A stretch of DNA of 64,000 nucleotides from Trypanosoma brucei (Eukaryota). The first letter of the stretch is position 1. Each line of letters begins with the position of its first letter. The translations under genes were made by a program, and so were the position numbers. Location of the stretch: positions 2,144,001-2,208,000 of the forward strand of contig CH464491.1 in the NCBI GenBank assembly GCA_000002445.1. The letters are read 5' to 3'. This document shows positions 3,251-46,684 of this stretch, one piece after another. The notes beneath the pieces are model-generated. The model was not told where the DNA came from and made no database searches. It worked only from the letters and a program-made list of their open reading frames with translations.

Positions 3251-3616
3251 GGCAGTCAATCAAAAAAGACGCACAATACAAGTGAAAAAAAAAAATCAGT
3301 GCACCATGAGGTGTGTAACGAACCGAGTGCGCTGAGATATTGATGGTGAAAAGTGATAAGTGGCAGGTGATTGGGGGGAGGAATGTCGATATGTCTCATC
3401 CCTCACAGCCGCTTCGGATGTCGTCTGGCATATATCAAAAGTAAACAGACATATATATTCATGTAGCGAGAGCAGAAGCCGGAAAAGTGAACTTGGATGC
3501 GGATAAAGCATTGAACATACTCCCTGAGGGAAACGAAAGATGGAAGGATAGAAAACACCGTATCATACCTCACTCCTGGCAGAGAACCAATGCTTTGATC
3601 TGTGCATTTGTAGATG

Positions 3617-9300: not shown

Positions 9301-9969
9301 TAATGCAAAAGAAGTGACGTAAGAGGTGAGAAGAAAAGAAGGATTTAAAAAGAAAAAAAAGTAAAAAAGAAGTAAAAAAGGATTACGGCAAACAACAACG
9401 ATGAAACCATTGGCCACCTTTTCAAAGTAAGTTTTATTGTTTTCATTTTTTTTTTCATTTTTTTAATTTTTTTTTTTTAAATCTTTCTTTTCTTCTCACC
9501 TCCTTCTTTGGCATACCCCCTGCCGCGGACTGTCACCTTTGCAGAAACTGGCAAGGTACTCGTCCTTTTAAAAAAAAAAAAACAATAAAAGATCAAAAAG
9601 AAAATTTTCGACTTTATCGAACTCTTTTACATGCACCATCAGCTGTGCTTCATTCTATCATTAAATATTTTTCTTTCTTTTGTTCTTTAAATATTACTCG
9701 AACACGTCAATAATTCCCAACAACTGCAATTGAGCCTCACAATACGCCTTGCCTCCTGTTACCGACACCGATGCGACACAACAAAGCCACATGTATATAT
9801 ATATATGTATATATATGTATATATATGACTACAAATACGAACACAGAATTTTTTTTCAGAAATCAGAGTAAAAACGTAAAAAGAAAAAAAAAGATGTTAG
9901 TAAATAAGGTTTCCCCCATCACTATTAGACGCGCCCTTATATTATACATAATTTCTTCCTAAACACACA

Positions 9970-10007
<38 letters not shown>

Positions 10008-11362: not shown

Positions 11363-11397
<35 letters not shown>

Positions 11398-13593
11398 GGA
11401 GGGGGATGATTTGTTTTTCCCTCAACATATGAAGGCACATCGCCGTTAATTATATAATTGTACTCGTATTTGTATACGCTTGCATGCCTTTACTGCGGCG
11501 TCTCCCTCCCCTGCTCTCCTTTTCCTTTTCCATTTCCTTTAAAAAAAAAAAAGAAATTGTCGAGAAGAGGAACTCCGAAACAAAAAAAAAGGGAGGGAAA
11601 AGACAAAATAAAGAAGATAAAAGCAAAGTAAAGTAAAGTAAAAAAAAAAAAGTAAAGAAAAGAAAAGTAAAATAATGGAAGCGAGGGCGGAGGAAACCAC
11701 TCAATGCAGATGAGCGTGTGAAATATGTGCAAAGGAAACCAAAACCAAAAAGGGGGAAAAAAAGGAAAGAATGGAGGCTGGTGTGCGACTAAAGATAAGA
11801 TCATACAAAATTATGTCAAAATATGAAAACAAAAATTCCCTTTGTCGTTCTTTCTTTTTTCTTTTTTGTTTGATTTCACTCCAGCAGACATATATATATA
11901 TTTTTTTTTAATAATTTTCCTTCTACCATTACCACCATCCAAACCTTTCTCTTCACCCTCTTCCTTTTAACTTCTCTACATGAAACATACAGAAAATATA
12001 TACATTTACCGTATATTCCATGCGCAACATGTGCATATTCCGAATCCGTACACTCGTATACATTTTTATTTTCATTTTTATTTTTATTTTTATTTTTTAA
12101 AAGGGAAAAGAAAAAAACACAAACACAAACACTTTTTAAAGGCCATTTTCGCATTTCCCTCCACCTCCTGCGTCATGTCATATCAAACTGAAAGCGCAAC
12201 CACACATTTTCAAACACGCAACTCGTGATTAATTGGCACGCAACCATTACGACTTTTTTTTTTCACAAAAAAAAAAAAGAAAGAAAATATCAAAGAACGG
12301 GGAAAAGAAGAAGTCCCTTCCCTTCCCATCCCATTTCTCTCGATCTCTTTTTTTTTTGTTGTTTTTGCTTATTTGTTTGTTTCTTTTGTTTTCTTTTTTC
12401 TTCCCCTCTTTCCCTCTTCTTATTTTAATTTTTTTTTTTAAAAAGAAAAAGAAAACAAAAGTTGATTCGTTTCCAATAAATGTCACCACAGCGTCGGTGG
12501 ATGAGGAGGCACTAAAGTGACGTAAGTCGGAGGTGGTAGTGAAGATTAAAAACACGGGAAAAGCGAAAGGGAAAAAAAGAAAAAAAGAAAAGGGGAAGGG
12601 AAAAAAGAAAAAGAAAAAGAATTAATTCCGATGCCACGTCATTACCAAAAATAGGCGTTTTTTTTCTTTTATTTTTCTTTTTAATTTCCTCTTTTTTACT
12701 TCTTCAAAACCTTACAATCCGCAGGGGCGTGTTTTCGTCAAAGTAATAACGACTAAGCCTCCATCACTACGGCAAGCAATGAATTTAAAAAAAAAAAGAA
12801 TCACAAAAATGAATAAAGAATTCAGCGCCTCACAACATAATTGTAGTAATGAAAAGTAATAATGGCTGATACACAACTTCCCAACTTCCTCCTCTCTCTC
12901 ACATGTGGTCGTTCATACTTTTGAATTTTACAAATAAAGACGAGAAGAAAGCAAAAGGAAATCCAACAATAAAAAACAAAAAGGTAAAAAAGAAAGAAAG
13001 AGAAGAAACCCCCTTTTTTTTTCCTGCTGTTTGACACTTATCTTTTCTTTTCTTTTTTTTCTTTTCTTTTCTTTTTTCTCCTCATGCCCCGCCATGTTAT
13101 TCTTCTTTTTTTCCTCCTCCTCCTCCTCCTCCTCCCATCCACATGGTAAGAACAAACACACATACAAAGACACAAACACAGAAGACAAAGGAAAAAAGAA
13201 AAAACAACAACATTATAAAAGGAGAGAAAACAGGTAGCGGTGGCAGTCATAACAGCAGCAGCATCAACATCAACAGCGACATTAACAGCGACAAAGGTAA
13301 AACCATCCCACTAAAAGAATAGTTACTTAGAAAGAGAACAAAAGAAAATGACAAAACAGGACGAAGGCGTGCGCGCGTGTAGTTATCTTTTTTTTTTTTA
13401 AAAAAAAAGAAAAAGGAAAAAAAGGAAAAGAAGAAAGCGGAACAGTCAGTGGGGAGCGGCCGAGCCTGCGGCGTATTAGTGAAGCAAAGGGTCAAAAAGC
13501 ATTTTTTACCGGCAAAAAAAAAAAGTTTCTTATCGGCCAAATCAATAATATCACAAACACATACCACAAAAAAAAAAAAAGGTAACTGACACC
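6398..13593. repeat. 7.2 kb low-complexity spacer (poly-dA/dT, (TA)n, (AAC)n, (AAT)n, purine/pyrimidine tracts) between two same-strand genes
   Basis: No ORF with protein-like composition in any frame. Track ORFs here are Phe/Lys/Asn-rich translations of homopolymer runs. Homopolymers and microsatellites are dense throughout. Confidence 0.85.
9972..10028. repeat. (TA)n / (ATTAT)n microsatellite
   Basis: catatatatatatatatatatatatatatatattatattatattattatatatatatat. Confidence 0.9.
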
Positions 13594-15237
13594 TTAAGAG
13601 AGTAAGCACAGCGGAACTATAACGGCGCCCACGGGGCAATGATCACTCGGACAGTTTGGTGCTGGAAGATTTGTGCTTGATGACAGCCTTAACACATCTG
13701 TACAACCAAGATGCCTCTTGTCTATGAGAATGTGGTCATATACTTTACCTTTACCGCCATCTCCCGGATCCACAAATGATACACGCCGCGGATGGCGTTC
13801 CCTGTAAATTTCATAAACATCCGTTAGAGCCAATGAGTGCCCGGCTGCAGGGGCCGTGAAACCGCTACATGTACCACCACCTCCCGCTCCACAGGGCGAT
13901 TCAACCATTGGGGTCCCTGATTTGCTATTTTCCACATCAACATCAGTGTCGCGTGAAATAGGACTAAAAGCACCAGTTTCCCTACCAGGTGTTCCGCACC
14001 ATGCACCAACATTACTGCTTTCGGGGAGCGAGCCGTTCAAAGCATACGCGATCGGCGGCTCCCACGACTCGGAGTTAAAGTCACCACCGAGCACAACTGC
14101 TACGATTGGACACTCTCCATTTGAGTTTTCTATGTGACTCTCGTGTTCCCCCTTAACTTGTTCAATATAACTCATTACGCGGTGCAGCTGCCACAACTGG
14201 CACCGTGAGCCGCTCCAAAGGAGGTGAAGATTGCACACCACATATATTACATTTGGTTTGTTCAGATCACGCAAAACGGTTATAAGAGCTACATTGTGGG
14301 ACATTCTCCGCAAACTCCGTCGTTCACTTTGTGTGAGGGTCTTATCAGCATTAGCTATTTCATTGAGTCGAATGGGAATAACTTCAAGTAACTCAAAGCG
14401 GTCCTTCAAGAAAAATGTAGCAACACCCTCCAAATCAGACCGCGGTGGCTCCACCGTTTTCTCAGCAGCGACATCATTAGAACGGCGGCTCTCCACAGTT
14501 CCTGAAGGGGAAGGCTTGGAAGACGAAGTGGTCACTTCTTGGAAAACTACGGCCTGAGCTCCGTCAGTTGAAGAATCAAAACTTGTATGGCGAGGTCGGC
14601 CCGACAAATCTGTGACCACTACATGGTTACCGATGAAGCCATGCTTTTCCCGCAAATTCTCGCCCAGTAAGCCGGGTTTCCCAAACACATCAACACTGAT
14701 TTCTTGTAGCAAAATGATGTCAGGATCTGCCTGAAGTAACTCCTGTTCTGCAAATCCACAGCGGTAGTCCTCCGCGAGGGCAAACGGAGGGCAGCGCGGA
14801 TAGCGCTGCATGGAGAGAAACCGCTGCGCTAAAATATTGTAACATACAAGCCTAACGACTCCGTTGTTTGACAATGCCTGTGATGAGACACCCAAATCTG
14901 TCTTGGACCATCCACGGAAGACGGTTCTATTGCTGTTACAATCCCCTTCAATGGCCTCTGGACAATCGTTCTGCAGTGTCTCGACACATAAACTGAGAAA
15001 ACTCCCGCCGAGCAATTTTTCGCGTCGTTCCTGAAGTGTTGTCCGATGAGTCGGTGATGCTGTTGATACTCCCAACGAAGGGAAACCTTCTGCCACTTGG
15101 TCATCAGTTGGTTGGAATGATGCGAGTCCAGAAGAATTCGTGTCATTCCGTGTCATGGGTGGACTGGATTCATCCTTTCCGATATCGAGGAAATGATGCG
15201 GGATTGCAAGTGGGGAGTTAGGCATTGTTGTATACAT
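13594..15237 (-). CDS. Endonuclease/exonuclease/phosphatase (EEP) family nuclease of the CCR4/nocturnin/PDE12 type
   Basis: LVCYNILAQRF...YRCGFAEQELLQADPDIILLQEI matches the CCR4 catalytic N and E motifs. C-terminal SDHCPV matches the EEP SDHxP motif. 547-aa uninterrupted ORF. Confidence 0.8.
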   Translation of the reverse strand: MYTTMPNSPLAIPHHFLDIGKDESSPPMTRNDTNSSGLASFQPTDDQVAEGFPSLGVSTASPTHRTTLQERREKLLGGSFLSLCVETLQNDCPEAIEGDCNSNRTVFRGWSKTDLGVSSQALSNNGVVRLVCYNILAQRFLSMQRYPRCPPFALAEDYRCGFAEQELLQADPDIILLQEISVDVFGKPGLLGENLREKHGFIGNHVVVTDLSGRPRHTSFDSSTDGAQAVVFQEVTTSSSKPSPSGTVESRRSNDVAAEKTVEPPRSDLEGVATFFLKDRFELLEVIPIRLNEIANADKTLTQSERRSLRRMSHNVALITVLRDLNKPNVIYVVCNLHLLWSGSRCQLWQLHRVMSYIEQVKGEHESHIENSNGECPIVAVVLGGDFNSESWEPPIAYALNGSLPESSNVGAWCGTPGRETGAFSPISRDTDVDVENSKSGTPMVESPCGAGGGGTCSGFTAPAAGHSLALTDVYEIYRERHPRRVSFVDPGDGGKGKVYDHILIDKRHLGCTDVLRLSSSTNLPAPNCPSDHCPVGAVIVPLCLLS

Positions 15238-27273: not shown

Positions 27274-29046
27274 CTAAACACCAATGTCACAGGCAGTAAC
27301 CCTGTCACTGCGCAGCGTTGTGAAGAACCAATCGGCATTTTCAACCTCCTCAATATTTACAAACAGCCCTCCGCCGAAAACGACGCCCTTTTCATCCTCG
27401 AAGGGGCACCCTCTTAAGTAACCCTTGCATCGTCTACGTGACCTCACTGTGGCCCCGTGCTGAGCCACCAGCTCTTGCGGAACCCACAGAGCGGAAGTAT
27501 AACGACGCTCCCAAGCACGCAGTGCGAGGAGACTTTTCAGGGTACCGCTGTATGGTTTATTCAAAATATCATGAGGTATGTAACTTGGCCACCATTTCAA
27601 GGCTTCAGCAGGAACCTTCACATCCGACATGTTGTAGATGACAAACGGGCGGCCGGAGGCACTGTACATGTGTTCCACGCGGAAAGCGTCCGGTGACAGC
27701 GTCCATCGGTCGCTTAAATAGTCTAGAAATGTTGCTGGTATCCACATCCGTGAAAGGGTCTTTTTCGCGCACTGGGCTCGTACACACTCCCAAGCGCACG
27801 AAATTCCAAAAACAGGAGCCTGGTTAAGAAACATTGTTGGGGTCTTCATTATCATCTCTTCGAGGTGCAGTGGGTCTTCAAACTGCTCTACGTTGAAGAA
27901 GCAACTGCTGCTCTGCATACCACAATGAGTGTCATGAATTCCTGGTGTGACGAACGTTATGCCCTGTTCCCGTGGCTTCAAGCGGACGACACCACCAACT
28001 TCATCCGTGTGGAGTACAAAGTAGGGATTGGCGTACCCCCTTAGAAGCGCAAAGCGCTGAAGGGCCTTCTGAAACTCGCGATTGGTGCAGTGGACGGTAG
28101 CCATGCGGGACAGACTGAACAGCACGGGAAGGGAAAGTTTTGCTACCTCTTCCGCTAAACAGCGGTGCCTGACAGTACTTACTGGCTCTCTAGCAAGGGA
28201 GGAAAGGAACGGAAAACCACTGACCTTCATTTGGCCAATCGTTACGCCACCAACTGCCAAATCAATTTCCTTTTTCGTCGGAAACACATCGGCGTCCTCA
28301 AACTGGTCGGCGCAGAAGTACTCCACGGCGTGCGCACCTCCCTTTCCGGAAAAGTACGACGTAAGTATGGGAGGATAGTCCCTCATTCCCTCCCTTGAAA
28401 CATTTACGCCAAATGAAGCGCCTTCTGCCATGGTAACCCATGTGCGAGAAACATAACCGCAGCGCAGGGCCTTTCGACGCATAAGTATAGAGATAGGACG
28501 GGGAAACGGTTGATTTGTGAGGGAATGGGGTTCATAAAGAACACAATCGCTTGGGTTGTAGCGCCCCTGGAAGGGTGTTTGCTCCGCGTTGATTAAGCGC
28601 CTGCTGCTGCAGCCCTCACCCACCCAGTAGGGGCTCCTAAAACAAGCTTTCCCGGCTATCAACTTCAACGCTTTAACACGAGATTCCCCAAAGGGAGCTC
28701 CAACGGATGACAGAGGGAAGGATCCGTGTAGTCCCGCAGCGATGTTGCCCTTGTAGTCTTCGAAGAACTCCACATCCGTCGTGTGAGCGGCGTTAACCAG
28801 TATACGATCGTGGCCAAGAGCTGCAAGGTCAGTAACAGCACATCCCGGTATTAACAAAACGTCGCACAAAATAGCGTTCGGAAGCAGTGTGATTCCTTCT
28901 TTCAGGCCTTTCACCAGCCTTTTGGGAACCCAAACATTACTCTCCAGTTTGTATCGACTAGCGAATACGATGAGGCCGCGACAAATCTCCTCAGGAAAAA
29001 ATGCACCGGTGAAAAGGTGAGGTGTTTTCCACCTCCATTTGGTCAT
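27274..29046 (-). CDS. Conserved-looking hypothetical protein (590 aa), Cys/Trp-rich, no recognised motif
   Basis: Long uninterrupted ORF on the PTU strand with globular, non-repetitive composition. Confidence 0.55.
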   Translation of the reverse strand: MTKWRWKTPHLFTGAFFPEEICRGLIVFASRYKLESNVWVPKRLVKGLKEGITLLPNAILCDVLLIPGCAVTDLAALGHDRILVNAAHTTDVEFFEDYKGNIAAGLHGSFPLSSVGAPFGESRVKALKLIAGKACFRSPYWVGEGCSSRRLINAEQTPFQGRYNPSDCVLYEPHSLTNQPFPRPISILMRRKALRCGYVSRTWVTMAEGASFGVNVSREGMRDYPPILTSYFSGKGGAHAVEYFCADQFEDADVFPTKKEIDLAVGGVTIGQMKVSGFPFLSSLAREPVSTVRHRCLAEEVAKLSLPVLFSLSRMATVHCTNREFQKALQRFALLRGYANPYFVLHTDEVGGVVRLKPREQGITFVTPGIHDTHCGMQSSSCFFNVEQFEDPLHLEEMIMKTPTMFLNQAPVFGISCAWECVRAQCAKKTLSRMWIPATFLDYLSDRWTLSPDAFRVEHMYSASGRPFVIYNMSDVKVPAEALKWWPSYIPHDILNKPYSGTLKSLLALRAWERRYTSALWVPQELVAQHGATVRSRRRCKGYLRGCPFEDEKGVVFGGGLFVNIEEVENADWFFTTLRSDRVTACDIGV

Positions 29047-31120: not shown

Positions 31121-32410
31121 TCAGCTGGATCTCCCGTCCCACTGCCATTGTGGCGAAGGGAGTCGTTCACTCCTTAACTTGTACACGCCAATGGTATCAT
31201 TTCCAGCGTATACAAGCCCCATATCTTGCGGGCTCCAGCGACGCACCTCTCTGCGAACGGTGTAGTCCTTCACAAGTTTATAGTGAGTGTAGAGGAGTTC
31301 GTGAAAACGCCAGTCACCTGTCGAAGCTACATCACCAATGTAAATGACGACCTTGCCACCTGCTTGTGTGAAGTACTCCAAAGCTTCGAACGCCATGGAG
31401 CTCTGCTCCTCCTTGGGAGAGCCGAATGGGGGCCAAGAGAGTAGTAGCACACTTGTAGGACACTGCAATGAGAGCAGAGCAACGGGTCCCCCGAGCGACA
31501 CACACACACTGTAAGGACAATTCAGTGCAACCTCGTCAAAGGCGTATATGGGAAGCTTTTTCTTGGGGTAAAAGCACGCATGCACACCCTCAAACGAAGA
31601 GATGCCCAAAGCAGGATCTGGATCCCTTGGCGCCGCCGGTACGCCATTGGCAACACGGTTAAAAATGTGTTCCACGTACCCAACGCCACTTCCCACACTC
31701 ACAATACAACTCATCTCAGGAAGAGCCCTGTACGCAGCATCCAATGCATCCTTCACGTGTTTGGGAGATACGAGACTCCAAGCGAATGCCGTTGATGCAA
31801 TACGGTGTGCCTCGTACGTCAGTGGCACCTTCAAAATGTCCGGCAGTTCCCTACGACACCGATCAATTTCATCTTTAAAGATTTGGTAATCATCACCAGA
31901 GGCGTCAAAGATGGCATCGACCAAGTACGCTATGTGTGGAAAGTAACACATAAGAGAACATCGGGGGCAATTACGATAGTAATACATCTCTCCTACCCTT
32001 CCCTGCGTGTTTTCATCTATGCCATCGAACCCGCAAACGTCGCAACTCCAGAGTTCTTCTTCCTCCTGCAACCGTGCCTTCTCCCGCAGACGCTCTAACT
32101 CCTCACGACTTGTTCCTTTTCGCTCCACTAATGGCGTTTTTTCTCCACTGTGAGGCAGAAAACAAATGCGGCCAAACGGACAGAAACCGTATTCCTCGAA
32201 CACCGGGCACACGACGAGCCGCTCCGGGGGTGGGGCCAGTTGTGGAACCTCTGGTGGAAGTCCCCCCGTTTCAGCGTAGAAAGGGGATGGTCGGGCTAAC
32301 ATTACGTGTTTTGATGCCCTCCGCTGGTTTGCATATACCGAAGCAGTGTGGCAGGTGAGCTTACACATAGAACACGAACACAAAGCACCCTCTACGCTGT
32401 GCATTGACAT
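31121..32410 (-). CDS. CCCH zinc finger plus CxxC zinc ribbon plus SAM-methyltransferase-like domain protein (TRM13-like architecture)
   Basis: CPVFEEYGFCPFGRICFLPH gives C-x8-C-x5-C-x3-H. SCDVCGF...NCPRCS gives CxxC...CxxC. VSVGSGVGYVEHIF is a GxGxG Rossmann motif. The N-terminal CCCH plus C-terminal MTase order resembles tRNA 2'-O-methyltransferase TRM13. Confidence 0.55.
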   Translation of the reverse strand: MSMHSVEGALCSCSMCKLTCHTASVYANQRRASKHVMLARPSPFYAETGGLPPEVPQLAPPPERLVVCPVFEEYGFCPFGRICFLPHSGEKTPLVERKGTSREELERLREKARLQEEEELWSCDVCGFDGIDENTQGRVGEMYYYRNCPRCSLMCYFPHIAYLVDAIFDASGDDYQIFKDEIDRCRRELPDILKVPLTYEAHRIASTAFAWSLVSPKHVKDALDAAYRALPEMSCIVSVGSGVGYVEHIFNRVANGVPAAPRDPDPALGISSFEGVHACFYPKKKLPIYAFDEVALNCPYSVCVSLGGPVALLSLQCPTSVLLLSWPPFGSPKEEQSSMAFEALEYFTQAGGKVVIYIGDVASTGDWRFHELLYTHYKLVKDYTVRREVRRWSPQDMGLVYAGNDTIGVYKLRSERLPSPQWQWDGRSS

Positions 32411-33167: not shown

Positions 33168-33593
33168 CTAAAAGTCATCGCTGAAGCTCTGGTGCTGGCC
33201 ACCTTGTTGGTTATCATTACGTCCCCTGCCTGAGTTACGATCACCACCAAAATCCCTTCCCCCTCGGCCGCCACCGAAGCCGCGACCGCGTCCTGCTCCC
33301 TCTGGTGGCCTCGGCCCTGACGGAAGCTTGGCTCCTCCAGGAGAAGTAACATTCTCGGCACGCGTGCGGCCATCCTGCGAAGCAACCTCGAACTCAACTT
33401 CCTGTCCGACAGTTAGTGCACGAAAGCCCCCCGTTTCCGTTTGAAGAGCTGAGAAATGCACAAAGTGTTGCTTCTTGTCTGCGTCGTCTTCAATGAAACC
33501 AAAACCACGTCCAGACATCCACGATATCACCTTACCCTTGTTGAGAAAGAGGGTGCATGGAGCCATGCGCTTAACTATGGAAGCGCGAATCAT
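33168..33593 (-). CDS. RBP16: Cold-shock domain protein with a C-terminal RGG/RG-rich tail; matches mitochondrial RNA-binding protein RBP16 (Y-box family)
   Basis: CSD core GKVISWMSGRGFGFIEDD...HFVHFSAL...GQEVEFEV. Tail GRGRGFGGGRGGRDFGGDRNSGRGRN. 141 aa, consistent with a ~16 kDa CSD+RGG protein. Confidence 0.7.
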   Translation of the reverse strand: MIRASIVKRMAPCTLFLNKGKVISWMSGRGFGFIEDDADKKQHFVHFSALQTETGGFRALTVGQEVEFEVASQDGRTRAENVTSPGGAKLPSGPRPPEGAGRGRGFGGGRGGRDFGGDRNSGRGRNDNQQGGQHQSFSDDF

Positions 33594-33944
33594 CTGTAAG
33601 GTGTTACTTAATAGTTCTTACGTGTGCGTGTATGTGGGTGATGGTGACCTATCGGTCTTCTCTTTTCCTACTAACTTGGAAGGATGAAACGATCCACGTG
33701 GACAAACTGACGTACCCTAAGGAGAAATAGCATTGAAAGACAGAAGGAGAAGTGGTACATTAGGAATAAGCCGTCAAACCAACACGTGGGCTCATGAAAG
33801 AGGTAGACAAGACACTTTGGTCGACATTACACACTGAGAAACAACTCATTAAAAATAACAAAAACGTAGCGCGCCTCGCATAATCATGCTCAAGCGGCCG
33901 TGAGTGTGAGCACGAGTTTTTGTGACCATAAGGATCCTCTTCCA

Positions 33945-34466
33945 TCAAAAATCAACTGGGACCCCACTGAAAGGGTCCGGAAAACTGTCGTCGATAACAT
34001 GCAGTCTGTCTTGGATTCCTTGGTAAAGGTACTTTTGCAAACGCTCTTGCTCTCCCCTGTACTTCAACCACTTTGATCTGCTCATGCATCGGTGAGAAGT
34101 GTCAGAGCACAAGCTACTGCGCACTCTGATTTGTTGGGCCCAGATTTCGGGCCCGAAACTAAGTGGTGTATCCGAACGGTTGAACTTCTCACGTTGCAGC
34201 GTGAAGAAAACCACTTCCCCCAATAAAACCACCGGCACCCATTCACTCTTGGAATTCACCGCAGTGGATAACCGGACCCTCCGATTTCCATCCAACGCAA
34301 CGATGTCATCAACAGAAAAGAAAATCGCATCCGTTGGTTCAAGGGTGGTTACAGTGTCACCTACACGACGGATAACACGTGCAGACGAAAGGTTGTGCTT
34401 GATTACACCGAGTCCCTTGTCAGCGCTAAATTTGGTTATTATCCCTTCAACTACGGCACCCTTCAT
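33945..34466 (-). CDS. Divergent cold-shock/OB-fold-like protein immediately upstream of RBP16
   Basis: GIITKFSADKGLGVIKHN...IFFSVDDIVAL...GEVVFFTLQRE has the same spacing as the CSD (KGFGFI / FVHFS / GxxVxF) but with substitutions. The track ORF extends to 34553, and the Met at 34466 is the likelier start. Confidence 0.4.
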   Translation of the reverse strand: MKGAVVEGIITKFSADKGLGVIKHNLSSARVIRRVGDTVTTLEPTDAIFFSVDDIVALDGNRRVRLSTAVNSKSEWVPVVLLGEVVFFTLQREKFNRSDTPLSFGPEIWAQQIRVRSSLCSDTSHRCMSRSKWLKYRGEQERLQKYLYQGIQDRLHVIDDSFPDPFSGVPVDF

Positions 34467-34661
34467 GTGCAAGCAGGAGAAAAACTCTGCACACATCAGA
34501 TGGAATTTTTTTATTGGTCGGAAGAAGGAAATGTAAATCCTTTTTGCGTTCAACTTAACTGCAATCGCACAGTGTAAAGCACAAGCACTTCAAACGACCC
34601 CAGCCGACCGTAAGACAACTTCTGTTACAGAACTCAGCCGCAACAAAATGGGATAAATCCA

Positions 34662-35906
34662 TCACGGGATAGTATCAGGATGTTCGCCCCTCGTTAGACG
34701 TATTAGCCTCTCCTTGGCACGCAGGACATCGGCTGAATATCCCATCTCCTTTGCTCTGGCCACCGTGTCCCACGCAACCTTGATTACCTCGTTGTTCCTG
34801 TCACCATGGGCACCCGAACCACGGACAGGACACGGTTTAGGCGCCCTGTCCTCCTCACTTCCTTGCCTTCGAACACAATAGAAGGCACCTTCAGCATCAA
34901 AAGTAGAGCGGTTCACATCCTCATGGACCCGGAGTGACCGCCGAAGTCGGCGGTAAACGTTTGGTTTGGGAAACAAAGAATCAGAACCGCCGACCGACTT
35001 TCGAACATTCAAAATTTCTGGAGACGGGACTTCTTCGCTATCCCCTTCCCCCGTGTCACCTCGCAGTTTCGGAGGAGTCGTAAATGTGCGATCGTCATCG
35101 TCGGGAAAATATTTTGCGGTCCAGTCCACGAGAGAAGGGTCAAGTGTTTCCTTATTTTCCAGGGCGCGCTGCCGCAGAAACGGGAACGCAGAGTACGAAG
35201 AGGTTCGTTCCTCTTTGTGTGTCAAGTCCATCATCGCCGGTGTGTTTTCCAGATTTGCCCACTCACCCTGGAGACGCCGTTTCTGGGCGGCATCTTCCTG
35301 TGACGCGACATTAACCCCGCAACGCTCCCCACATTCGCCGGTGTGCCTATCTTCTTCATGAAGCGTCGCCGCGCGCTCGGAGCACACTGTCTCTTGGCAC
35401 CATCTGGATTTTTTGCTCCCTTTATCTGACTCCTTCAAAGCGGTCATGATGTGAGTTCGCAGATGTTTGGGTGAGGAAAATGCTGCAGCAGCAACAAACG
35501 AACGATACTCTGCATCCATCTGTTCACAGAGACGCATATACTTTCTGGCGTTGCGGGTTTCAAGCATGGCAGCCCCAGTGGTATCTTTAAGATAGTCTTG
35601 AAGCAAAGAGGACAACTTTTCCCGCATCGCCCTATCCTTAATATTTTGCCAATTCTCCTTTCGGCCATATAGTCGCTCGGCATCATCCATGTACGTCCGC
35701 CTCCGGTCCTGCAACCACGGGACGGTTGGAAGGGGTCGTAGCTTAGAAAACCGCATGTCTCGGTGGAAATTCCCCTTCTCTCGCACTGTCTGGGGATTAG
35801 AAGACCGGCGCTTGTATGGCCGCTTGGCATCTACTTTCCAGTGCCGCTGCGTGTGGACAAAGGCAGGCTGCCACCTAGGGATGGTTTTAACACATTGCCG
35901 TATCAT
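34662..35906 (-). CDS. Hypothetical protein (414 aa)
   Basis: Long uninterrupted ORF on the PTU strand with charged, non-repetitive composition and no recognised motif. Confidence 0.5.
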   Translation of the reverse strand: MIRQCVKTIPRWQPAFVHTQRHWKVDAKRPYKRRSSNPQTVREKGNFHRDMRFSKLRPLPTVPWLQDRRRTYMDDAERLYGRKENWQNIKDRAMREKLSSLLQDYLKDTTGAAMLETRNARKYMRLCEQMDAEYRSFVAAAAFSSPKHLRTHIMTALKESDKGSKKSRWCQETVCSERAATLHEEDRHTGECGERCGVNVASQEDAAQKRRLQGEWANLENTPAMMDLTHKEERTSSYSAFPFLRQRALENKETLDPSLVDWTAKYFPDDDDRTFTTPPKLRGDTGEGDSEEVPSPEILNVRKSVGGSDSLFPKPNVYRRLRRSLRVHEDVNRSTFDAEGAFYCVRRQGSEEDRAPKPCPVRGSGAHGDRNNEVIKVAWDTVARAKEMGYSADVLRAKERLIRLTRGEHPDTIP

Positions 35907-36823: not shown

Positions 36824-37288
36824 TCAGCGAAAAATCTCTGGGGTCATCTTATACACAACATCAGAGAGAATGAAGTTTCCTTCCATATCCATCTCCGACC
36901 GCATCTCCTCAACAAAGGCGTTCATTTCATCCGTACTCAAGCGCTCACCCTGCGTTGTTAAAATGTAGCGAAGGTCATGCTGAGACATGTATCCCTTGCG
37001 TTCAGGGTCTATCCCCTTAAAAGCTTCTTTCAGATCACGCATCGTCCTCATATTTTCAAAAGCCATCTTCATCGCGCAGCAGAAGCCGTCAAACGACACT
37101 GACCCACGACCCTCGTAGTCTGCTTCAGCCTTCAAAGATTCAATGTCCGCTTCAAGTGGTGTACCACCACAGATTCTAACTAGAGATATGAGATCACTCA
37201 AAGGTATACGCCCAATCTTGTCATGATCGAAGGCATCAAAACGACGCTTCAAATACTCACGCGTCAAATCGTCAAATGCGCTGGACAT
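36824..37288 (-). CDS. EF-hand calcium-binding protein (calmodulin/myosin-light-chain-like, 154 aa)
   Basis: Four EF-loop-like segments: DHDKIGRIPLSDL, DYEGRGSVSFDGF, DPERKGYMSQHDL, DMEGNFILSDV. Confidence 0.7.
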   Translation of the reverse strand: MSSAFDDLTREYLKRRFDAFDHDKIGRIPLSDLISLVRICGGTPLEADIESLKAEADYEGRGSVSFDGFCCAMKMAFENMRTMRDLKEAFKGIDPERKGYMSQHDLRYILTTQGERLSTDEMNAFVEEMRSEMDMEGNFILSDVVYKMTPEIFR

Positions 37289-40546: not shown

Positions 40547-42130
40547 CTACTGATGATTGTCGCATTTTATCCAGCCAAGAACATCCTTGGCTACATTCGA
40601 TACGACACGCTGCTCTTCGGTGTGTCTGGCTGCTCGCGCGCCAAACCTCTCCATTGACTTTCGGCGCTCATGAAAGGCCACCTTTTTTAATAGGTGTCGC
40701 GCCTCCAGTTGGTCAGATGAATACGTTGTTGAAGCAATTCCTCTGGAAGCCAATGTTCGACTTCTCCTAACAGGTCGCGGTGGAGACTTTGTGATAATGT
40801 TGACTGTGAAATCGGGGTCACCTCGTTCCTGAAGCAGAGTCGCCAAAGCAGCTGAGTGAGCGCTCCTAACGTATTCTGTAGCTTCGCTGTCAAGATTCCT
40901 CCCAATGTTATCAAGCCCGTAGGGATCCTTTATCGCAAATTCAAAAAATGGTGGTCTACCCGTCTCCGTTCCGGGAGACTTCTCCCAACGCATCGTCTTC
41001 TTTAGAAGGTTGATATTTGTCGTACAAACAACATTTTTCCCATAGTCAAAAACAGCGCCATAGTACTCAAAAAAAGCAGCTGTCAGAAACCCCAGTTCTG
41101 CTAAATCACAGTCCTCACCATCGTGAAGCGGCCGATAATCCGGAAAGGGCGGAAGAAGTTGTGGTTCATCCGCGGATCGAAGCGTTGACACTTTTGGAAT
41201 AACCCCCACTTTGATCAAGAAGTGAGCACACATGACGGTCAGGGCGTAACTCGCCAGAAGACCATCGATAGAATTTATAACTCCGCTCGATCTTCCCCAT
41301 CTCTTAATCAAAAGTAGTAGATGCCTTGAAAAAACATACTTAGAGAGCGCATCGCTCAACAAATACGAATTCCGCAATCCGACAGAAGAAAAACAAAAAT
41401 CGAAGGAAAGTCGGTAGAGCTCCGGTCCATTCCGAGGATCCACTGGAAGACGCAAAGGGATGTCAACACCTTCATGCCGTTTCACCTCCGTTAACGCAGC
41501 AACAAGTGCCGAACTCGAACTGAATTCAACCGTTGAGAACTGCTGATTGTTACTCCACTCTGTGTTCACCGCCCCAAAATTTTCTTCCATCCTCGATTTA
41601 AACGAAGTGCATTCATTGTTATTCATTTGTCGTGTAAACTGAAAAATACCGCACGTGGATAGGTGGTGAAGAGGTGTTCCTGGTAAGGACTTGCTAACCC
41701 TATCCACCTTTATCACTGGAACACGAGCCTTTGGCAGCGCGCTACTTTTCAAACCCAGACGTCTCATTTCCCTCGACAAACGTGAAACAATTTCACCTGC
41801 CTCAGCGACGCCGGGTTCAACATCTGCTACCCCGACGAAATCAGCATCGCCTCCAACTTCTAGTAAACCCATAACCACAATGCCTCCAAACGCAAAGACG
41901 CTCGCATCGTAGCCTGTCGACTGAACAAGCGTTTCTAATTGCTGCCTTGCCGTACTACATTCATCAAACGCAGATCTTCCAGTGTCCGAGGCCAATGCCA
42001 TCCTTACAACAGACTTCCCCAACCCCTCCCACTGGCTGTCGCTTTTAGGTGGAAGGGATGACTTCCAGGGCAACGTGATGCATCTCTTCACTCCCGTATT
42101 CCCTGACCGAAAAGCTGAAAACTTTCTCAT
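40547..42130 (-). CDS. Cid1/TUTase-family nucleotidyltransferase (non-canonical poly(A) polymerase / terminal uridylyltransferase-like)
   Basis: FGGIVVMGLLEVGGDADFV fits the [GS]S..GL...SD.D nucleotidyltransferase signature. A PAP-associated-like region follows (LLLLIKRWGRSSGV...LLASYALTVMCAHFLI). Confidence 0.75.
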   Translation of the reverse strand: MRKFSAFRSGNTGVKRCITLPWKSSLPPKSDSQWEGLGKSVVRMALASDTGRSAFDECSTARQQLETLVQSTGYDASVFAFGGIVVMGLLEVGGDADFVGVADVEPGVAEAGEIVSRLSREMRRLGLKSSALPKARVPVIKVDRVSKSLPGTPLHHLSTCGIFQFTRQMNNNECTSFKSRMEENFGAVNTEWSNNQQFSTVEFSSSSALVAALTEVKRHEGVDIPLRLPVDPRNGPELYRLSFDFCFSSVGLRNSYLLSDALSKYVFSRHLLLLIKRWGRSSGVINSIDGLLASYALTVMCAHFLIKVGVIPKVSTLRSADEPQLLPPFPDYRPLHDGEDCDLAELGFLTAAFFEYYGAVFDYGKNVVCTTNINLLKKTMRWEKSPGTETGRPPFFEFAIKDPYGLDNIGRNLDSEATEYVRSAHSAALATLLQERGDPDFTVNIITKSPPRPVRRSRTLASRGIASTTYSSDQLEARHLLKKVAFHERRKSMERFGARAARHTEEQRVVSNVAKDVLGWIKCDNHQ

Positions 42131-43289: not shown

Positions 43290-43589
43290 ACCCTGAATAC
43301 GAAGTTATAGCACCGTACCGTGTGCAAACCACTCGCTTAAATATTAATAACTTGGTTGTCTCAAAGGTTAGGAAATACAAGGCAACCAAAAAAGGGATGG
43401 TTATGCAAAGGGGATGGCAAGTTAGTTTGCAACGCGCCAACTTTGACATAGAGGTGAGAACAGATGAATATCACCGCAGGAACATGTGGACACACGCCCA
43501 TCCTTGCCTATGTTGCAGAAATGCCCAGTAACCCGGAAGCTCGAGGGGGCAAAAAACTATCGATTGCACCGCCGAATATATAATCCGTA

Positions 43590-44300
43590 TCGCATCTATA
43601 CCACTTCCGCAAGACAAAGGGCCACCTTCACCACAAACCTTTTAAAAAAATATACACCGTCGTCCAACCAACACAAGACAAAAGCGCCACACACCTCCCA
43701 AGCTCCGGCGTTGGTACTCAATTGCGCAAGTTCGTCGCGAAAACGGAACTGAAAGACCTGCGCTAAACTACAAACACGAACGGGTAATGGAAAAGAACCA
43801 CTGATCGACGTTTCGTGGCGGCTCCGCCTCCTCACCACCCCTCTCTGTTTTTCCTCCTCCATTCAATAGAGGCACTCCACCTCAACAAAATATACGAAAA
43901 AGAAAAAGGTGCAATCAGAGAGTTTGGTTGAAACGTGCTGCTCACGTATCACCCTCCGAAGCGAAAGCATGTCCAGTAGAACTAACATGGACAGGCATTC
44001 ACACATACTCCACTAAAAATAGAAGTCAGAGGGGGCAGTTGCCCACGCACGACGGCCACCACCCACCACAGCAGCGGTAAACAGGGAGACTCTACGAAGG
44101 GCAAATACAGTGCCACATCACCGCCCCCATGGGTGTTCCCCCCGCCCCTGACGAGACGGAAACATCATTTCTGTGACGCCGCCAACCGGCTCGCATAGAA
44201 AGGAACAGAGGAACAAGGCCCTCCTTCGAGCATTGGCACAGCGGTGACACCTGACATCAGACAACCAGAGCAACCAGGTGCGGCAACAGTCGAGCACCAC
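43590..44300 (-). promoter_or_regulatory. AC-rich tract on the top strand (GT-rich on the minus strand) with C-runs at 44121-44149; candidate GT-rich promoter for the minus-strand PTU
   Basis: ccaccacccaccacagcagc, cgtccaaccaacacaagacaaaagcgccacacacctccc, ccgcccccatgggtgttccccccgcccc. Lies just upstream of the first minus-strand gene. Confidence 0.45.
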
Positions 44301-46684
44301 AGGAAGGTGCCTACTTTAAGCACTGCCTAATGCCAGCGAAAGTGCACACTTTTATGCTCTGTTGACGGGGTTATCTTGCCCCTCAGCGGGGATACCAAGC
44401 AGAACCCAGTTCCCGCTCCCATCATCGGAGCTTAACGAAACGGAGGGACACCTCTCAGGCGGAAACGTGTGATCCTCCCGGCAATGCTCTGCGAGGGCGC
44501 GCTGGACCTTTCCGTCACGCAGGAGGTGATCGCAAAGATTATGGGAACCGCGCCATTCACCTCCTATGGTTGCAAACACACGGGGCTTGCCCATTTTAGA
44601 GATAAAAGCACCAGGGCGTCAACACACGTTCGTTTTGGAGTGGTGTAGCTACGAGTCTGAGAACAAACACAGATTTGGGAAGCGTCACTGTTGCAATGGT
44701 GCCTGAAAGTAGTGAACAGCATGCTGTGACATATTTCCCTTTCCCCGACAACTCTAACGTGAGCACGGGAAGGTCGGAGTTACTGGGAGAAATAAAGGTC
44801 CACGGCTATTTTGAGCGGATTCGAATTGTCGCCCTGCTGCCGGAACTCGCGCGCCCCAAAGGAAGAGAGTGAGAGAAGCTGATATTAAATTTGGCAACTG
44901 GAGAAGAGTTTAATGGTCACCGGCAGTGAAGACCTAATGTGACACACAACACTGGGAGACAGGCTGTTTCACACAAACGTTACCTATTTCTGGCGTTGTG
45001 AGGTGATCGTTCAGAATGTGGTGCGGAACCGTAACAGCTACCACAGTTGGATCACCTCCAATGTAGCAGTGGGGCGCGATATGAAAAGGATAATGTACTT
45101 CAAAACTCCACAACCTTTTACTTCCTCAGAAAAGGGGGCTGGTTGGCCCAAATTACTGAAAGGAACGCGCAATTAAGCCCCGTAAATAGGGGAAAGGTGG
45201 AGTGGACGGCACTTGAAGACTCCAACGAGGGCATTACATCTGTTGTTCGCCCGTTGACATCAAATACAATCCCTAATAGGGGCGACATGCTGCCACAACA
45301 ATGGGTGCCGGAACAGAGAGTCCGTGAAAGTAAGGCAAATCAACGCAGGAGCCTAGCGAAAAGACTAGCCTTCATTAGGTTGGGAAAAAATGTTTTGAAC
45401 CCTAGCGATGCCGGCCACATCAACGTGGTGTCAGGGTCCAGTACCCCGTATCATCGGGGGAAGCCAAGAGCTAGCAGCGTTCCTCTCATGGGGAACACTG
45501 CTGTGCTCCGGCTACGGCATCATACAGCACAGGGATCAGCAGCGTCTTGCTGGGACACCGTTTTTCATTTGTCGGTCCCTGGGCACGTGGCTAGCGTGCC
45601 ATCAGCAGTATCATCCGCACTAAGATGCTGCTGTCCGGTGATGATGTTTCGAATGATGTATTTTTAGGGTGTCGAGGGGGAATGCTGCCAAATCATCCGT
45701 CACTGAAGGGCGAAACTGGATTTGACCGAGGGTGAGTCCACCGCCTGCTCGTCATCTATCATCGCTCAGGCAAGAAGTGAGTGCACGGTGACGAAAAAAT
45801 GATAGACACAAGTTGTATGTAGATACGTATACGTAGCATTCTACAAAGAATCCAACAATTCCACCAACGAATGTTGCCATCACTGAATACTGTCCGTTTA
45901 AGCCCATTTTCAACGCGGTTACAATAAAGAGTCCCTCGGAGAGGCGTTTGTTGTACTAGAGAAAGGGGGGGATGAAACTTCTAACATAAAGTTAGCCTCC
46001 CTACGTAAAACTGGCAGGGCTTTGATGTCCAAACGGAGATTCCTGTTGTCTCACCGTAGATCCACAATCAGGCGCCTCGTTGAGGTAGAGAAGCTGAGCA
46101 TGCACGCCCACTGGACCAGAATTGAGTCGAGTGGGAAAGGCTACAGCAGCATTCTCCCGCATGTAGCGTAGCAGATGCACTGCCAAACAAATATCATAGG
46201 ATGTCCACAGGTGCGTGCAAGTGCGCCGTTAGGAACATCAACCACATCAAAATGCACAGCAATGCCGGTGTCAAAGTGAGCCCGCATCTAGCCCAGGCAG
46301 CGCCAAGGAAAATACCGATGGGTTTACGAAGCCGAAGCATATTTTATTTGGCAGCACGTTAGCCCAGGGGAAGTGACCTTCCGTTTCCTCAGCCGTGCCA
46401 AGAATTTTCGCCTCGGAGTAAGTCAGTTCCATCTTCTTTCCCGCTCGCCCATTAGGGCTGGTCGTGGCTTTAAGGTGGAAGATGCATCTGTTCTCATTAT
46501 TAAGACTCTGTCTGAGTGGAGGCACGTGGCTCTAGCACTACTAGACACGAAATTGTTTGCACAGCAGTGCGTTCTGTAAGATTCAACAGCCAAGCAGTGA
46601 GTTCCATTTTCCTTCCTTGTGGAAAGAGGGGTTCATTATGGAATGTCCGGCCCATGTCATTGAGACATATTCTTCCGGACGCCT

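What the first reader, a model, noticed from the sequence alone, without database searches (positions are those of the whole stretch)
33168..34553. Tandem pair of cold-shock-domain genes: canonical CSD+RGG protein (RBP16-like) next to a divergent CSD-like paralogue
The 141-aa product of 33168-33593 is a textbook Y-box/cold-shock domain (GRGFGFI...FVHFS...GQEVEFEV) followed by an RGG box. Immediately upstream on the same strand, 33945-34466 encodes a ~170-aa protein whose N-terminal 80 residues follow the same beta-strand spacing (KGLGVI / IFFSVDDI / GEVVFF) with the key aromatic residues substituted. That looks like an old tandem duplication with one copy diverging, perhaps losing nucleic-acid binding. 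I know of no such neighbour described for RBP16.
Basis: partly seen in the sequence, partly recalled or inferred. Interest (0 to 1): 0.55.

Follow-up and report, generated by a model that had tools for sequence, protein, structure and literature searches.

The report
Hidden cold-shock-like gene beside RBP16
Next to the well-known trypanosome mitochondrial RNA-binding gene RBP16 lies a small, fast-evolving gene that no sequence database recognises, but whose predicted structure is a cold-shock-type barrel lacking most of its RNA-gripping residues, probably an old, diverged copy of a neighbouring cold-shock gene.

Summary
33168-33593(-) is RBP16 itself (Tb927.11.7900: CSD, Pfam E=2e-16, plus RGG box), which is already known. 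33945-34466(-) is a real 173-aa gene at the position of Tb927.11.7910. It is conserved in seven Trypanosoma species in the same slot (RPB8 / 414-aa gene / this gene / RBP16). It is under purifying selection at both ends, and reads for that gene ID exist in RNA-seq and ribosome profiling.

The barrel keeps the CSD glycines but loses most RNP1/RNP2 aromatics. It carries two loop insertions, a conserved C-terminal helix and a conserved tail.

Bodo saltans and an environmental kinetoplastid have canonical CSD+RGG paralogues in the same slot, so a tandem-duplication origin is plausible but unproven. Very divergent positional counterparts exist in Leishmaniinae and Phytomonas, and none in Angomonas.

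Most likely this is a stand-alone non-canonical CSD acting mainly through protein contacts. Its function is untested. Interest is moderate.

The parts
33168..33593 (-). RBP16 coding sequence (141 aa plus stop); Tb927.11.7900, a mitochondrial Y-box-family gRNA/mRNA-binding protein
   Evidence: ORF. PF00313 at E=2.3e-16. Orthologues named rbp16 or mitochondrial RNA-binding protein across kinetoplastids. Gene ID and 15.1 kDa mass from PMC10270622 and the PMC5436138 supplement.
33342..33530 (-). Canonical cold-shock domain of RBP16 (residues 22-84), with RNP1 RGFGFI and RNP2 FVHFS
   Evidence: Pfam stretch 22-84 on profile positions 4-65 of 66. Motifs read from the translation.
33219..33293 (-). 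RGG box of RBP16 (residues 101-125)
   Evidence: Read directly from the translation. The conserved C-terminal FSD[DE]F end follows.
33945..34466 (-). 173-aa gene (plus stop) encoding the divergent CSD-like protein. It is identical to T. equiperdum TEOVI_000302100 and sits at the position of Tb927.11.7910.
   Evidence: homologues in 7 Trypanosoma species at about 30% identity. Synteny. dN/dS 0.55 with no indels. Gene numbering. Expression reads.
34119..34454 (-). Non-canonical cold-shock-like beta-barrel (residues 5-116). Strands: beta1 6-14, beta2 19-24, beta3 48-51, beta4 85-90, beta5 108-115. Inserted hairpins at about 30-42 and 55-65.
34002..34100 (-). C-terminal helical region (residues 123-155; long helix 130-155) with invariant S131, W133 and E139. 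Together with the tail it forms the most constrained third of the protein.
   Evidence: Model pLDDT about 80 for 130-150. Invariant columns. dN/dS 0.29 for residues 116-172. The only segment matched between the Trypanosoma and Leishmaniinae profiles.
33948..34001 (-). Low-confidence C-terminal tail (residues 156-173) ending in the conserved motif SG(I/V)P(I/V)DF-COOH
   Evidence: Alignments. pLDDT below 50.
34467..34661 (-). Short (195-nt) intergenic region upstream of the gene. It holds a polypyrimidine run (about 34521-34533) and AG dinucleotides (34485-34488), a candidate trans-splice acceptor.
   Evidence: Sequence read. Comparable pyrimidine tracts lie just upstream of the ATG in T. theileri, T. 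grayi and T. melophagium. The function of these signals is inferred, not shown.

Best explanation
The pair consists of RBP16, a canonical CSD+RGG mitochondrial RNA-binding protein, and immediately upstream on the same strand a stand-alone non-canonical cold-shock-domain protein of 173 aa.

Most likely origin: the upstream gene descends from a tandem duplicate of an RBP16-type CSD gene present in the kinetoplastid ancestor.

What it kept:
- The barrel-forming residues, including the three CSD glycines at G8, G18 and G20 with spacing G-x9-G-x-G.
- The ADKG turn.
- Ile22.
- Aromatics at the positions of CspA W11 and F34.

What it lost:
- The RNP1 phenylalanines (KGLGVI in place of RGFGFI).
- The RNP2 Phe and His (AIFF in place of FVHF).
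- The RGG tail.
- In Trypanosoma, any N-terminal presequence.

What it gained:
- Two hairpin insertions.
- A conserved amphipathic C-terminal helix.
- A conserved C-terminal tail.

Inferred mode of action: it works as a pseudo- or weak RNA-binding OB module. Its selected surfaces are beta1-beta3 and, above all, the C-terminal helix and tail. It therefore acts mainly through protein-protein contacts as an adaptor or scaffold, in the way Unr's ncCSDs act in cis, rather than as a high-affinity ssRNA binder.

Shown: the gene is real, conserved and syntenic; the fold resembles a CSD; the motifs are substituted; expression reads exist.
Inferred: the duplication origin, the weakened RNA binding and the adaptor role.

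The confidence of 0.6 is a composite: about 0.8 for the CSD-like fold, about 0.55 for the tandem-duplication origin and about 0.35 for the adaptor/pseudo-RBD mode of action.
For: A real gene:
- Orthologues in T. vivax, T. congolense, T. theileri, T. melophagium, T. grayi and T. conorhini.
- Wherever the locus could be read (T. vivax, T. theileri, T. grayi, T. melophagium), it sits between the Tb927.11.7920 homologue and RBP16.
- T. theileri against T. melophagium: 172 codons with no indels, while the adjacent intergenic region has 26 gap columns in 386.
- dN/dS is 0.55 overall (Fisher p=0.0095), 0.47 for residues 1-58, 1.14 for 59-115 and 0.29 for 116-172.
- Tb927.11.7910 has 130-1637 poly(A)+ RNA reads and 8-108 ribosome footprints per library.

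CSD-like by sequence:
- hhalign P=1.3e-4 (Trypanosoma profile) and 8.6e-4 (with Leishmaniinae added). Both are in the register GxVxKFSADxGxGxI against GKVxSWxxxRGFGFI.
- 0 of 200 shuffles reach the observed score.
- The family HMM ranks 7 of the 9 CSD genes within the top 10 of 123 ORFs from other kinetoplastid loci, always on HMM positions 6-25.
- The family profile's best PDB match is the N-terminal peptide of CspA.

CSD-like by structure:
- Foldseek top 14 hits are all CSDs.

Origin:
- Bodo saltans has two canonical CSD+RGG genes directly upstream of its RBP16.
- An environmental kinetoplastid contig has the order RPB8 / CFAP77 / double-CSD gene / CSD gene / RBP16 / 433-aa gene. There the upstream copies start right at beta1 with no presequence, like the Trypanosoma protein.

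A pseudo-RBD precedent exists in the Unr ncCSDs (PMC7383231).
Against: - No Pfam CSD hit at E<=10 for any of six members.
- BLASTP against RBP16 finds nothing.
- The hhalign probability is only 23-53%. The significant segment covers beta1-beta2 alone, and the global alignment is not significant.
- The AlphaFold model is of moderate quality: mean pLDDT 64, with the other four models at 32-56. It rests on seven sequences, and the single-sequence model was uninformative.
- The family scores no better against RBP16 than against bacterial CspA, so descent from RBP16 in particular is not demonstrable.
- The Bodo upstream paralogues are 71% identical to each other and may be a lineage-specific duplication.
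- The Leishmaniinae/Phytomonas positional counterparts match the Trypanosoma profile only weakly (P=0.0077; HMM E 0.02-4). Alone they do not hit CSD: score 13.7, and 20 of 100 shuffles do as well.
- Two RNA-contacting aromatic positions are retained, and a third (the second RNP1 Phe) in 3 of 7 species, so RNA binding may persist.
- The gene is absent from Angomonas, so it is dispensable in at least one lineage.
- No localisation or proteomic evidence was found.
Confidence: 0.6

Rival explanations
1. The CSD-like OB fold is real, but the gene is not a diverged tandem copy of RBP16. It derives from another CSD or OB gene, or arrived in the slot independently, and its adjacency to RBP16 is coincidental. 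It may still be a genuine single-stranded nucleic-acid binder with altered specificity.
For: - The family profile has no preference for RBP16 over CspA or other CSDs.
- The gene upstream of the CSD array in the environmental kinetoplastid is CFAP77, not the Tb927.11.7920 homologue, so synteny with outgroups is imperfect.
- The Bodo paralogues look lineage-specific: 71% identical to each other and about 50% to RBP16.
- Aromatics persist at the W11 and F34 positions, and a Phe at the F20 position in T. theileri, T. grayi and T. melophagium.
Against: - Same strand and immediate adjacency to RBP16 in every trypanosomatid locus that has the gene.
- Both outgroup loci carry CSD genes in exactly that slot.
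Confidence: 0.22
2. The CSD resemblance is an artefact. AlphaFold extrapolated a CSD barrel from a short CspA-like N-terminal motif, and the real protein has another beta-rich fold (for example Sm- or SH3-like) or is largely disordered.
For: - Only beta1-beta2 gives a significant sequence signal.
- Mean pLDDT is 64, and the other four models average 56, 56, 43 and 32.
- There is a faint Pfam hit to the Ataxin-2 Sm domain (E=0.21, one member only).
- The middle third evolves neutrally.
Against: - The strands predicted for beta3, beta4 and beta5 coincide with the conserved hydrophobic blocks (xIxFS, GxxVxFxL, AxxVxM) and with the low-stringency hhalign register.
- 70 of 72 residues of Unr CSD1 superpose at 2.0 Å.
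- The Sm hit is below threshold and not shared by orthologues.
Confidence: 0.1
3. The C-terminal half is a diverged cytochrome bc1 subunit 7 (QCR7/UQCRB) module, so the protein is a respiratory-chain accessory subunit rather than a CSD paralogue.
For: phmmer of the single protein against PDB sequences hits chicken and other QCR7 chains on residues 111-156 at E=0.013-1.4. The shared pattern is W-x2-[WY]-x2-E-x3-L-x2-[YL]-L.
Against: - The signal weakens with the family profile (E 0.9-2.3).
- No PF02271 hit for any member.
- Trypanosomes have a separate QCR7 homologue on chromosome 10 (TvY486_1004260).
- The gene was not found in the mitochondrial importome tables that list both of its neighbours.
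Confidence: 0.03
4. The upstream ORF is not a functional protein-coding gene. It would be a chance ORF within the UTR or intergenic region between Tb927.11.7920 and RBP16.
For: - It was absent from the original 2005 annotation: the old IDs Tb11.02.5770/5780 and the UniProt accessions Q384M8/Q384M7 of the two neighbours are consecutive.
- The upstream intergenic region is very short, 195 nt.
- dN/dS is high relative to the neighbours.
- There is no proteomic or TrypTag record in the supplements searched.
Against: - The ORF has been kept at about 170 codons in seven species at about 30% identity, with collinear invariant residues.
- There are no indels, and dN/dS is significantly below 1 at both ends.
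- Ribosome footprints and mRNA reads exist for Tb927.11.7910.
Confidence: 0.02

Closest known systems
RBP16 (Tb927.11.7900), the T. brucei mitochondrial Y-box-family protein
   Same: 33168-33593 is this gene. It has an N-terminal presequence, a canonical CSD (PF00313) and an RGG box. The upstream protein shares with it the predicted barrel, the register of the three glycines and a terminal D-F.
   Different: The upstream protein has no detectable pairwise similarity to RBP16. It has no RGG box and no presequence, and its RNP1 and RNP2 motifs are degenerate. It also has two loop insertions and a C-terminal helix.
Non-canonical cold-shock domains (ncCSDs, 'pseudo-RNA-binding domains') of Unr/CSDE1 (Hollmann et al. 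2020, PMC7383231; PDB 6Y6E, 6Y4H, 6Y6M)
   Same: - A CSD fold that escapes the Pfam CSD model because the RNA-binding aromatic motifs are substituted.
- It lies next to a canonical CSD and is probably derived by duplication.
- Entries containing Unr CSDs are among the best structural matches.
   Different: - Unr ncCSDs are domains within one polypeptide, alternating with canonical CSDs. This one is a separate gene.
- Unr ncCSDs have an extended beta1-beta2 loop. Here that loop is canonical (ADKG), and the insertions lie after beta2 and after beta3.
- This protein adds a conserved C-terminal helix and tail.
- Lack of RNA binding was shown for Unr ncCSDs and is not tested here.
Bacterial CspA / eukaryotic Y-box CSDs (PF00313)
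   Same: The beta1-turn-beta2 sequence is nearly CspA-like (FSADKGLGVI against FNADKGFGFI). It is a five-stranded barrel, with Foldseek target-normalised TM 0.77 to 1MJC.
   Different: It fails the Pfam model. It lacks F18, F20, F31 and H33 (CspA numbering). The domain is about 112 residues rather than about 70.
T. brucei CSD1, CSD2 and CSD3 (the other annotated CSD proteins)
   Same: They belong to the same organism and domain superfamily. The literature counts four CSD proteins in T. brucei (PMC10270622), and this would be a cryptic fifth.
   Different: They are recognised by Pfam, and this protein is not.

Membership tests
Cold-shock domain, PF00313 (upstream 173-aa protein) | Sequence match to the Pfam CSD model at or above the gathering score (27 bits) | tested here: not met
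   No CSD hit at E<=1 for the window protein, nor at E<=10 for any of six family members.
Cold-shock domain, PF00313 (upstream 173-aa protein) | Five-stranded antiparallel beta-barrel of the CSD subclass of OB folds | tested here: met
Cold-shock domain, PF00313 (upstream 173-aa protein) | RNP1 motif [KR]-G-[FY]-G-F-I on beta2 | tested here: not met
   The aligned segment is K-G-L-G-V-I. K, both G and I are kept, and both aromatics are replaced in T. brucei. The second Phe is retained only in T. theileri, T. grayi and T. melophagium.
Cold-shock domain, PF00313 (upstream 173-aa protein) | RNP2 motif V-F-V-H-F on beta3 | tested here: not met
   The aligned segment is A-I-F-F-S. Only the last Phe (F50, invariant) is kept, His becomes a hydrophobic residue, and the first Phe is variable. 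This comes from a low-stringency hhalign register consistent with beta3 of the model.
Cold-shock domain, PF00313 (upstream 173-aa protein) | Binding of single-stranded RNA or DNA | not testable with these tools
   Needs EMSA or anisotropy with recombinant protein. The pI of the N-domain varies from 4.7 to 9.7 among orthologues, which is uninformative.
Unr-type non-canonical CSD (pseudo-RBD) | CSD fold lacking the Y/FGF and FFHF RNA-binding motifs | tested here: met
   Fold. Motif substitutions. Definition from PMC7383231.
Unr-type non-canonical CSD (pseudo-RBD) | Extended beta1-beta2 loop | tested here: not met
   The beta1-beta2 turn has canonical length (S-A-D-K-G, as in CspA N-A-D-K-G). The insertions are after beta2 and after beta3.
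Unr-type non-canonical CSD (pseudo-RBD) | Embedded between canonical CSDs of the same polypeptide, with fixed interdomain contacts | tested here: not met
   It is a separate 173-aa gene with its own start and stop, 351 nt upstream of RBP16.
RBP16 / Y-box family (33168-33593) | Canonical CSD followed by an RGG-rich C-terminal domain, with orthology to T. brucei RBP16 | tested here: met
   PF00313 at E=2.3e-16. RGG box read from the translation. Orthologues of 70-86% identity are annotated rbp16 or mitochondrial RNA-binding protein. The Tb927.11.7900 mass of 15.1 kDa fits 141 aa.
Cytochrome bc1 subunit 7 (QCR7, PF02271) for the C-terminal half | Match to the UCR_14kD model and being the organism's QCR7 orthologue | tested here: not met
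   No Pfam hit. PDB sequence hits reach only E 0.013-2.3 and weaken with the family profile. A distinct trypanosome QCR7 homologue lies on chromosome 10.

The most novel reading that the evidence does not exclude
The 173-aa protein is a trans-acting pseudo-cold-shock domain, a stand-alone equivalent of Unr's ncCSDs. Through its conserved C-terminal helix and D-F tail and its degenerate barrel, it would dock onto a canonical CSD/RGG protein (RBP16 before import, or a cytosolic CSD protein) or onto that protein's partners. By doing so it would tune RNA selection or protein targeting. That would be the first case of a pseudo-RBD split off as a separate, syntenically linked gene.
Probability: 0.1. 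Interest if true: 0.65.

Novelty: new variant of a known kind. Interest (0 to 1): 0.4.

Why it matters
RBP16 is a long-studied factor in kinetoplastid mitochondrial RNA editing and stability. The literature counts exactly four CSD proteins in T. brucei (PMC10270622).

A fifth, cryptic CSD-fold protein sits beside RBP16. It is conserved across Trypanosoma and probably across most trypanosomatids. It would extend the idea of 'pseudo-RNA-binding' cold-shock domains from multidomain metazoan Unr to a free-standing protist gene.

It also gives a concrete example of how a tandem duplicate can drift beyond sequence recognition while keeping its fold.

It supplies a cheap, testable candidate (Tb927.11.7910) for tagging, RNAi and RNA-binding assays.

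The finding does not open a long-standing question. No function is known, and the gene is dispensable in at least one lineage.

Tried and rejected
- BLASTP of the two window proteins found nothing.
- Pfam scans of the protein and of six orthologues gave only a sub-threshold Ataxin-2 Sm hit in one member.
- Single-sequence AlphaFold was useless, with pLDDT 32.
- The afdb50 Foldseek library was unavailable.
- hhalign in global mode was not significant, P 0.07-0.77.
- A Leishmaniinae/Phytomonas-only profile against CSD was not above shuffles.
- The QCR7 lead for the C-terminus was rejected.
- The family HMM against individual CSD sequences showed no preference for RBP16, so sequence does not support descent from RBP16 in particular.
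- Full-text search for Tb927.11.7890/7910 gave no paper.
- The TrypTag, ImportOmics, nuclear-proteome and Jensen ribosome-profiling supplements gave no entry for Tb927.11.7910. Several of these files were truncated when stored.
- Rfam and tRNA scans of the window found nothing.
Full report
**Where we are**

The window is from a Trypanosoma brucei-group genome. The 173-aa product of 33945-34466(-) is 100% identical to T. equiperdum TEOVI_000302100. The genes run as one minus-strand polycistron up to about 43.3 kb.

Published tables anchor the gene IDs:
- RBP16 is Tb927.11.7900, 15.1 kDa.
- The 414-aa gene at 34662-35906 is Tb927.11.7920, 48.0 kDa.
- The EF-hand gene at 36824-37288 is Tb927.11.7940.

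The ORF under study therefore sits where Tb927.11.7910 should be. The old IDs of its two neighbours (Tb11.02.5770 and 5780) and their UniProt accessions (Q384M8 and Q384M7) are consecutive. It was therefore missing from the original annotation and added later.

**The canonical gene**

33168-33593(-) encodes 141 aa. It has a presequence-like N-terminus and a Pfam CSD (residues 22-84, E=2.3e-16). The RGG box and a C-terminal FSDDF can be read from the sequence. Orthologues at 63-86% identity are annotated rbp16 or mitochondrial RNA-binding protein from Trypanosoma to Bodo. All of them end in [FL]SD[DE]F. This is RBP16 itself, and it is already known.

**The upstream gene is real**

An exhaustive phmmer search of 1.8 billion cluster representatives found six family members, all from Trypanosoma. 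Names recovered elsewhere assign them to T. vivax, T. congolense, T. theileri, T. grayi and T. conorhini, with T. melophagium added by the profile search. They share about 30% identity, lengths of 162-173 aa and collinear invariant residues: G8, D16, G18, G20, I22, L26, F50, P78, G83, F88, L90, S131, W133 and E139.

In every locus that could be read the order is EF-hand / RPB8 / about 420 aa / this gene / RBP16 / about 430 aa.

Between T. theileri and T. melophagium the CDS has no indels, while the neighbouring intergenic region has 26 gap columns in 386. dN/dS values:

| Region | dN/dS |
|---|---|
| Whole gene | 0.55 (p=0.0095) |
| Residues 1-58 | 0.47 |
| Residues 59-115 | 1.14 |
| Residues 116-172 | 0.29 |
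| Four neighbouring genes | 0.01-0.19 |

So this is a fast-evolving gene with constrained ends.

A stop 3 codons upstream of the ATG in T. vivax fixes the short N-terminus. Pyrimidine tracts precede the ATG in several species.

Table S4 of PMC4845500 lists Tb927.11.7910 with 130-1637 fragmented poly(A)+ RNA reads and 8-108 ribosome-footprint reads per library, in both procyclic and bloodstream forms. Equating that ID with this ORF rests on numbering only.

**Is it CSD-like? Sequence evidence**

BLASTP against RBP16 and Pfam both find nothing. Profile methods do find a signal:
- The family profile's best PDB sequence match is the N-terminal peptide of CspA, in the register GvvvkysaDkGvGvIkp against GIVKWFNADKGFGFITP, though only at E=0.39.
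- hhalign against a 25-sequence CSD alignment gives P=1.3e-4 (Trypanosoma only) and 8.6e-4 (with Leishmaniinae), in the same register.
- Column-shuffled controls never come close: observed 34.1 against mean 12.1 and maximum 23.2, 0 of 200.
- The Trypanosoma HMM was run against all 123 ORFs of at least 80 aa from seven non-Trypanosoma loci. It put two slot proteins and 7 of the 9 CSD genes into its top ten, always on HMM positions 6-25.
- At low alignment stringency the match extends to TDxIlFSv against hFVHFSa (beta3) and vGxiVlFtL against vGQeVEFeV (beta4).

**Is it CSD-like? Structure evidence**

AlphaFold2 on the seven-sequence alignment gave mean pLDDT 64.3 and pTM 0.56, with 70-83 on the barrel strands and the long helix.

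- Foldseek independently put CspA first (E 3.4e-3, TMt 0.77), followed by YBX2, CRHSP-24, YB-1 and Lin28.

- beta1, residues 6-14
- beta2, 19-24 (KGLGVI)
- beta3, 48-51 (IFFS)
- beta4, 85-90 (VVFFTL)
- beta5, 108-115 (WAQQIRV)

Extra hairpins occupy about 30-42 and 55-65. A long helix spans 130-155, followed by a disordered tail.

**What is kept and what is lost**

Kept:
- The three glycines that are invariant in both families, with identical spacing.
- The ADKG turn and Ile22.
- An aromatic at the CspA-W11 position (F or Y in most species).
- The invariant F50 at the CspA-F34 position.

Lost:
- Both RNP1 phenylalanines in T. brucei; the second survives in three species.
- The RNP2 first Phe and the His.
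- The RGG tail and the presequence.

The most constrained third is the C-terminal one, which holds the helix with invariant S131, W133 and E139 and the SGIP(I/V)DF end. This points to a selected protein-interaction surface rather than the classical RNA face. That is an inference.

**Distribution and origin**

Leptomonas, Leishmania, Lotmaria and Phytomonas carry a 236-326-aa gene in the same slot. It has collinear but very weak motifs: YRGxVxxFSxDxQxGxV, xFSxKxV, PCYIxxGCP, a helix containing W, and a D(A/G)(V/I)P(M/F) end. Statistical support for orthology is modest: hhalign P=0.0077 and HMM E 0.02-4. On their own these proteins do not hit CSD.

Angomonas has no room for the gene between the Tb927.11.7920 homologue and RBP16.

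Two outgroups are informative:
- Bodo saltans has two canonical CSD(+RGG) genes immediately upstream of its RBP16 orthologue.
- An environmental kinetoplastid contig reads DSPc / EF-hand / RPB8 / CFAP77 / a double-CSD gene / a single CSD+RGG gene / RBP16 / 433 aa. Its upstream copies begin right at beta1, without a presequence.

The slot upstream of RBP16 is therefore a place where CSD duplicates sit in free-living relatives. That makes descent of the trypanosomatid gene from such a duplicate the simplest reading.

It is not proven. The Bodo pair may be lineage-specific, being 71% identical to each other. The family shows no greater affinity for RBP16 than for CspA.

**Comparison with what is known**

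The nearest concept is the non-canonical CSD of Unr/CSDE1. These domains have a CSD fold, lack the Y/FGF and FFHF motifs, are missed by PF00313, do not bind RNA alone and act as scaffolds (PMC7383231).

This protein shares the first three properties. It differs in being a separate gene, in having a canonical beta1-beta2 turn with insertions elsewhere, and in carrying a conserved C-terminal helix and tail.

It fails three of the four testable PF00313 criteria: the model score, RNP1 and RNP2. It should therefore not be filed as a canonical CSD. It is a CSD-fold protein of a new, trypanosomatid-restricted family.

The literature searched counts four CSD proteins in T. brucei and does not mention this one.

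**Rejected lead**

The C-terminus resembles cytochrome bc1 subunit 7 at E=0.013 with the single sequence. The signal fades with the family profile and has no Pfam support. Trypanosomes also have a separate QCR7 homologue on chromosome 10.

**Verdict**

RBP16 is already known. The neighbour is a previously unrecognised non-canonical CSD-fold protein, a new variant of a known kind. It is of moderate interest and its function is unknown. The best guess, at about one in three, is that it is a protein-interaction-centred pseudo-RBD.

Noticed in passing
window 33168-33185 and 33948-33968; proteins P0009-P0072: Every RBP16 orthologue from Trypanosoma to Bodo ends in [FL]SD[DE]F-COOH. The Trypanosoma slot proteins end in SG(I/V)P(I/V)DF-COOH. 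The shared terminal D-F could be a vestige of common origin, a common docking motif or coincidence.
   Followed up: partly
window 27274-29046, 33168-33593, 34662-35906, 40547-42130 (all minus strand): The neighbourhood is rich in mitochondrial nucleic-acid proteins. It holds a Tc-38/p38 family protein (PF20054, E=8.5e-33), RBP16, Tb927.11.7920 (an uncharacterised 48-kDa protein listed in the mitochondrial importome) and a Cid1-type poly(A) polymerase that by numbering is KPAP1 (Tb927.11.7960). This order is conserved across trypanosomatids.
   Followed up: partly
L011 (Angomonas deanei LR877156.1) 3293-5001: The slot gene is absent. The homologue of Tb927.11.7920 reads through two different frames, which means a frameshift, a pseudogene or an assembly error. 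The annotation instead calls a 193-aa minus-strand ORF and a 75-aa ORF there.
   Followed up: partly
L007 (Bodo saltans) 186-1948; L013 (environmental kinetoplastid contig) 5745-8477: Free-living kinetoplastids carry arrays of canonical CSD+RGG/GY genes directly upstream of the RBP16 orthologue. One L013 gene (5745-6641) contains two complete CSD+Gly/Tyr-rich units in a single ORF. The upstream copies in L013 lack a presequence, while the RBP16 orthologue has one.
   Followed up: partly
window 34002-34136 (residues 111-155 of the 173-aa protein): There is a weak, recurrent sequence resemblance to the C-terminal helices of cytochrome bc1 subunit 7 (QCR7): W-x2-[WY]-x2-E-x3-L-x2-[YL]-L. It scores E=0.013 with the single sequence and about 1 with the family profile, and was judged to be chance.
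   Followed up: yes
window 8600-13600: An AT-rich stretch of about 5 kb (GC 0.32-0.33 at 8-12 kb, against about 0.47-0.50 elsewhere). It has no ORF of 150 aa or more on the coding strand and many short low-complexity A/T-rich tandem repeats.
   Followed up: no
window 43290-45050: The coding strand and GC skew switch sign here. Minus-strand genes lie to the left and plus-strand genes to the right, which is a divergent strand-switch region of the kind that marks Pol II transcription start regions in trypanosomes.
   Followed up: no
window 31121-32410 (minus strand): The 429-aa gene downstream of RBP16 has only a sub-threshold CCCH zinc-finger hit (PF25585, E=0.005). It is conserved in position in all trypanosomatid loci examined, and also in Bodo and in the environmental kinetoplastid.
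   Followed up: no
L005:4254-5234, L006:4088-4834, L008:3885-4595, L010:3256-4113: The Leishmaniinae and Phytomonas counterparts of the slot gene are 60-150 aa longer. They begin with Arg/Ser/Cys-rich extensions (for example MLRRSFHCRRSCAFAWY and MRSLSILRSNIY) that look like short mitochondrial presequences. The Trypanosoma proteins start directly at beta1, so the localisation may differ between lineages.
   Followed up: no
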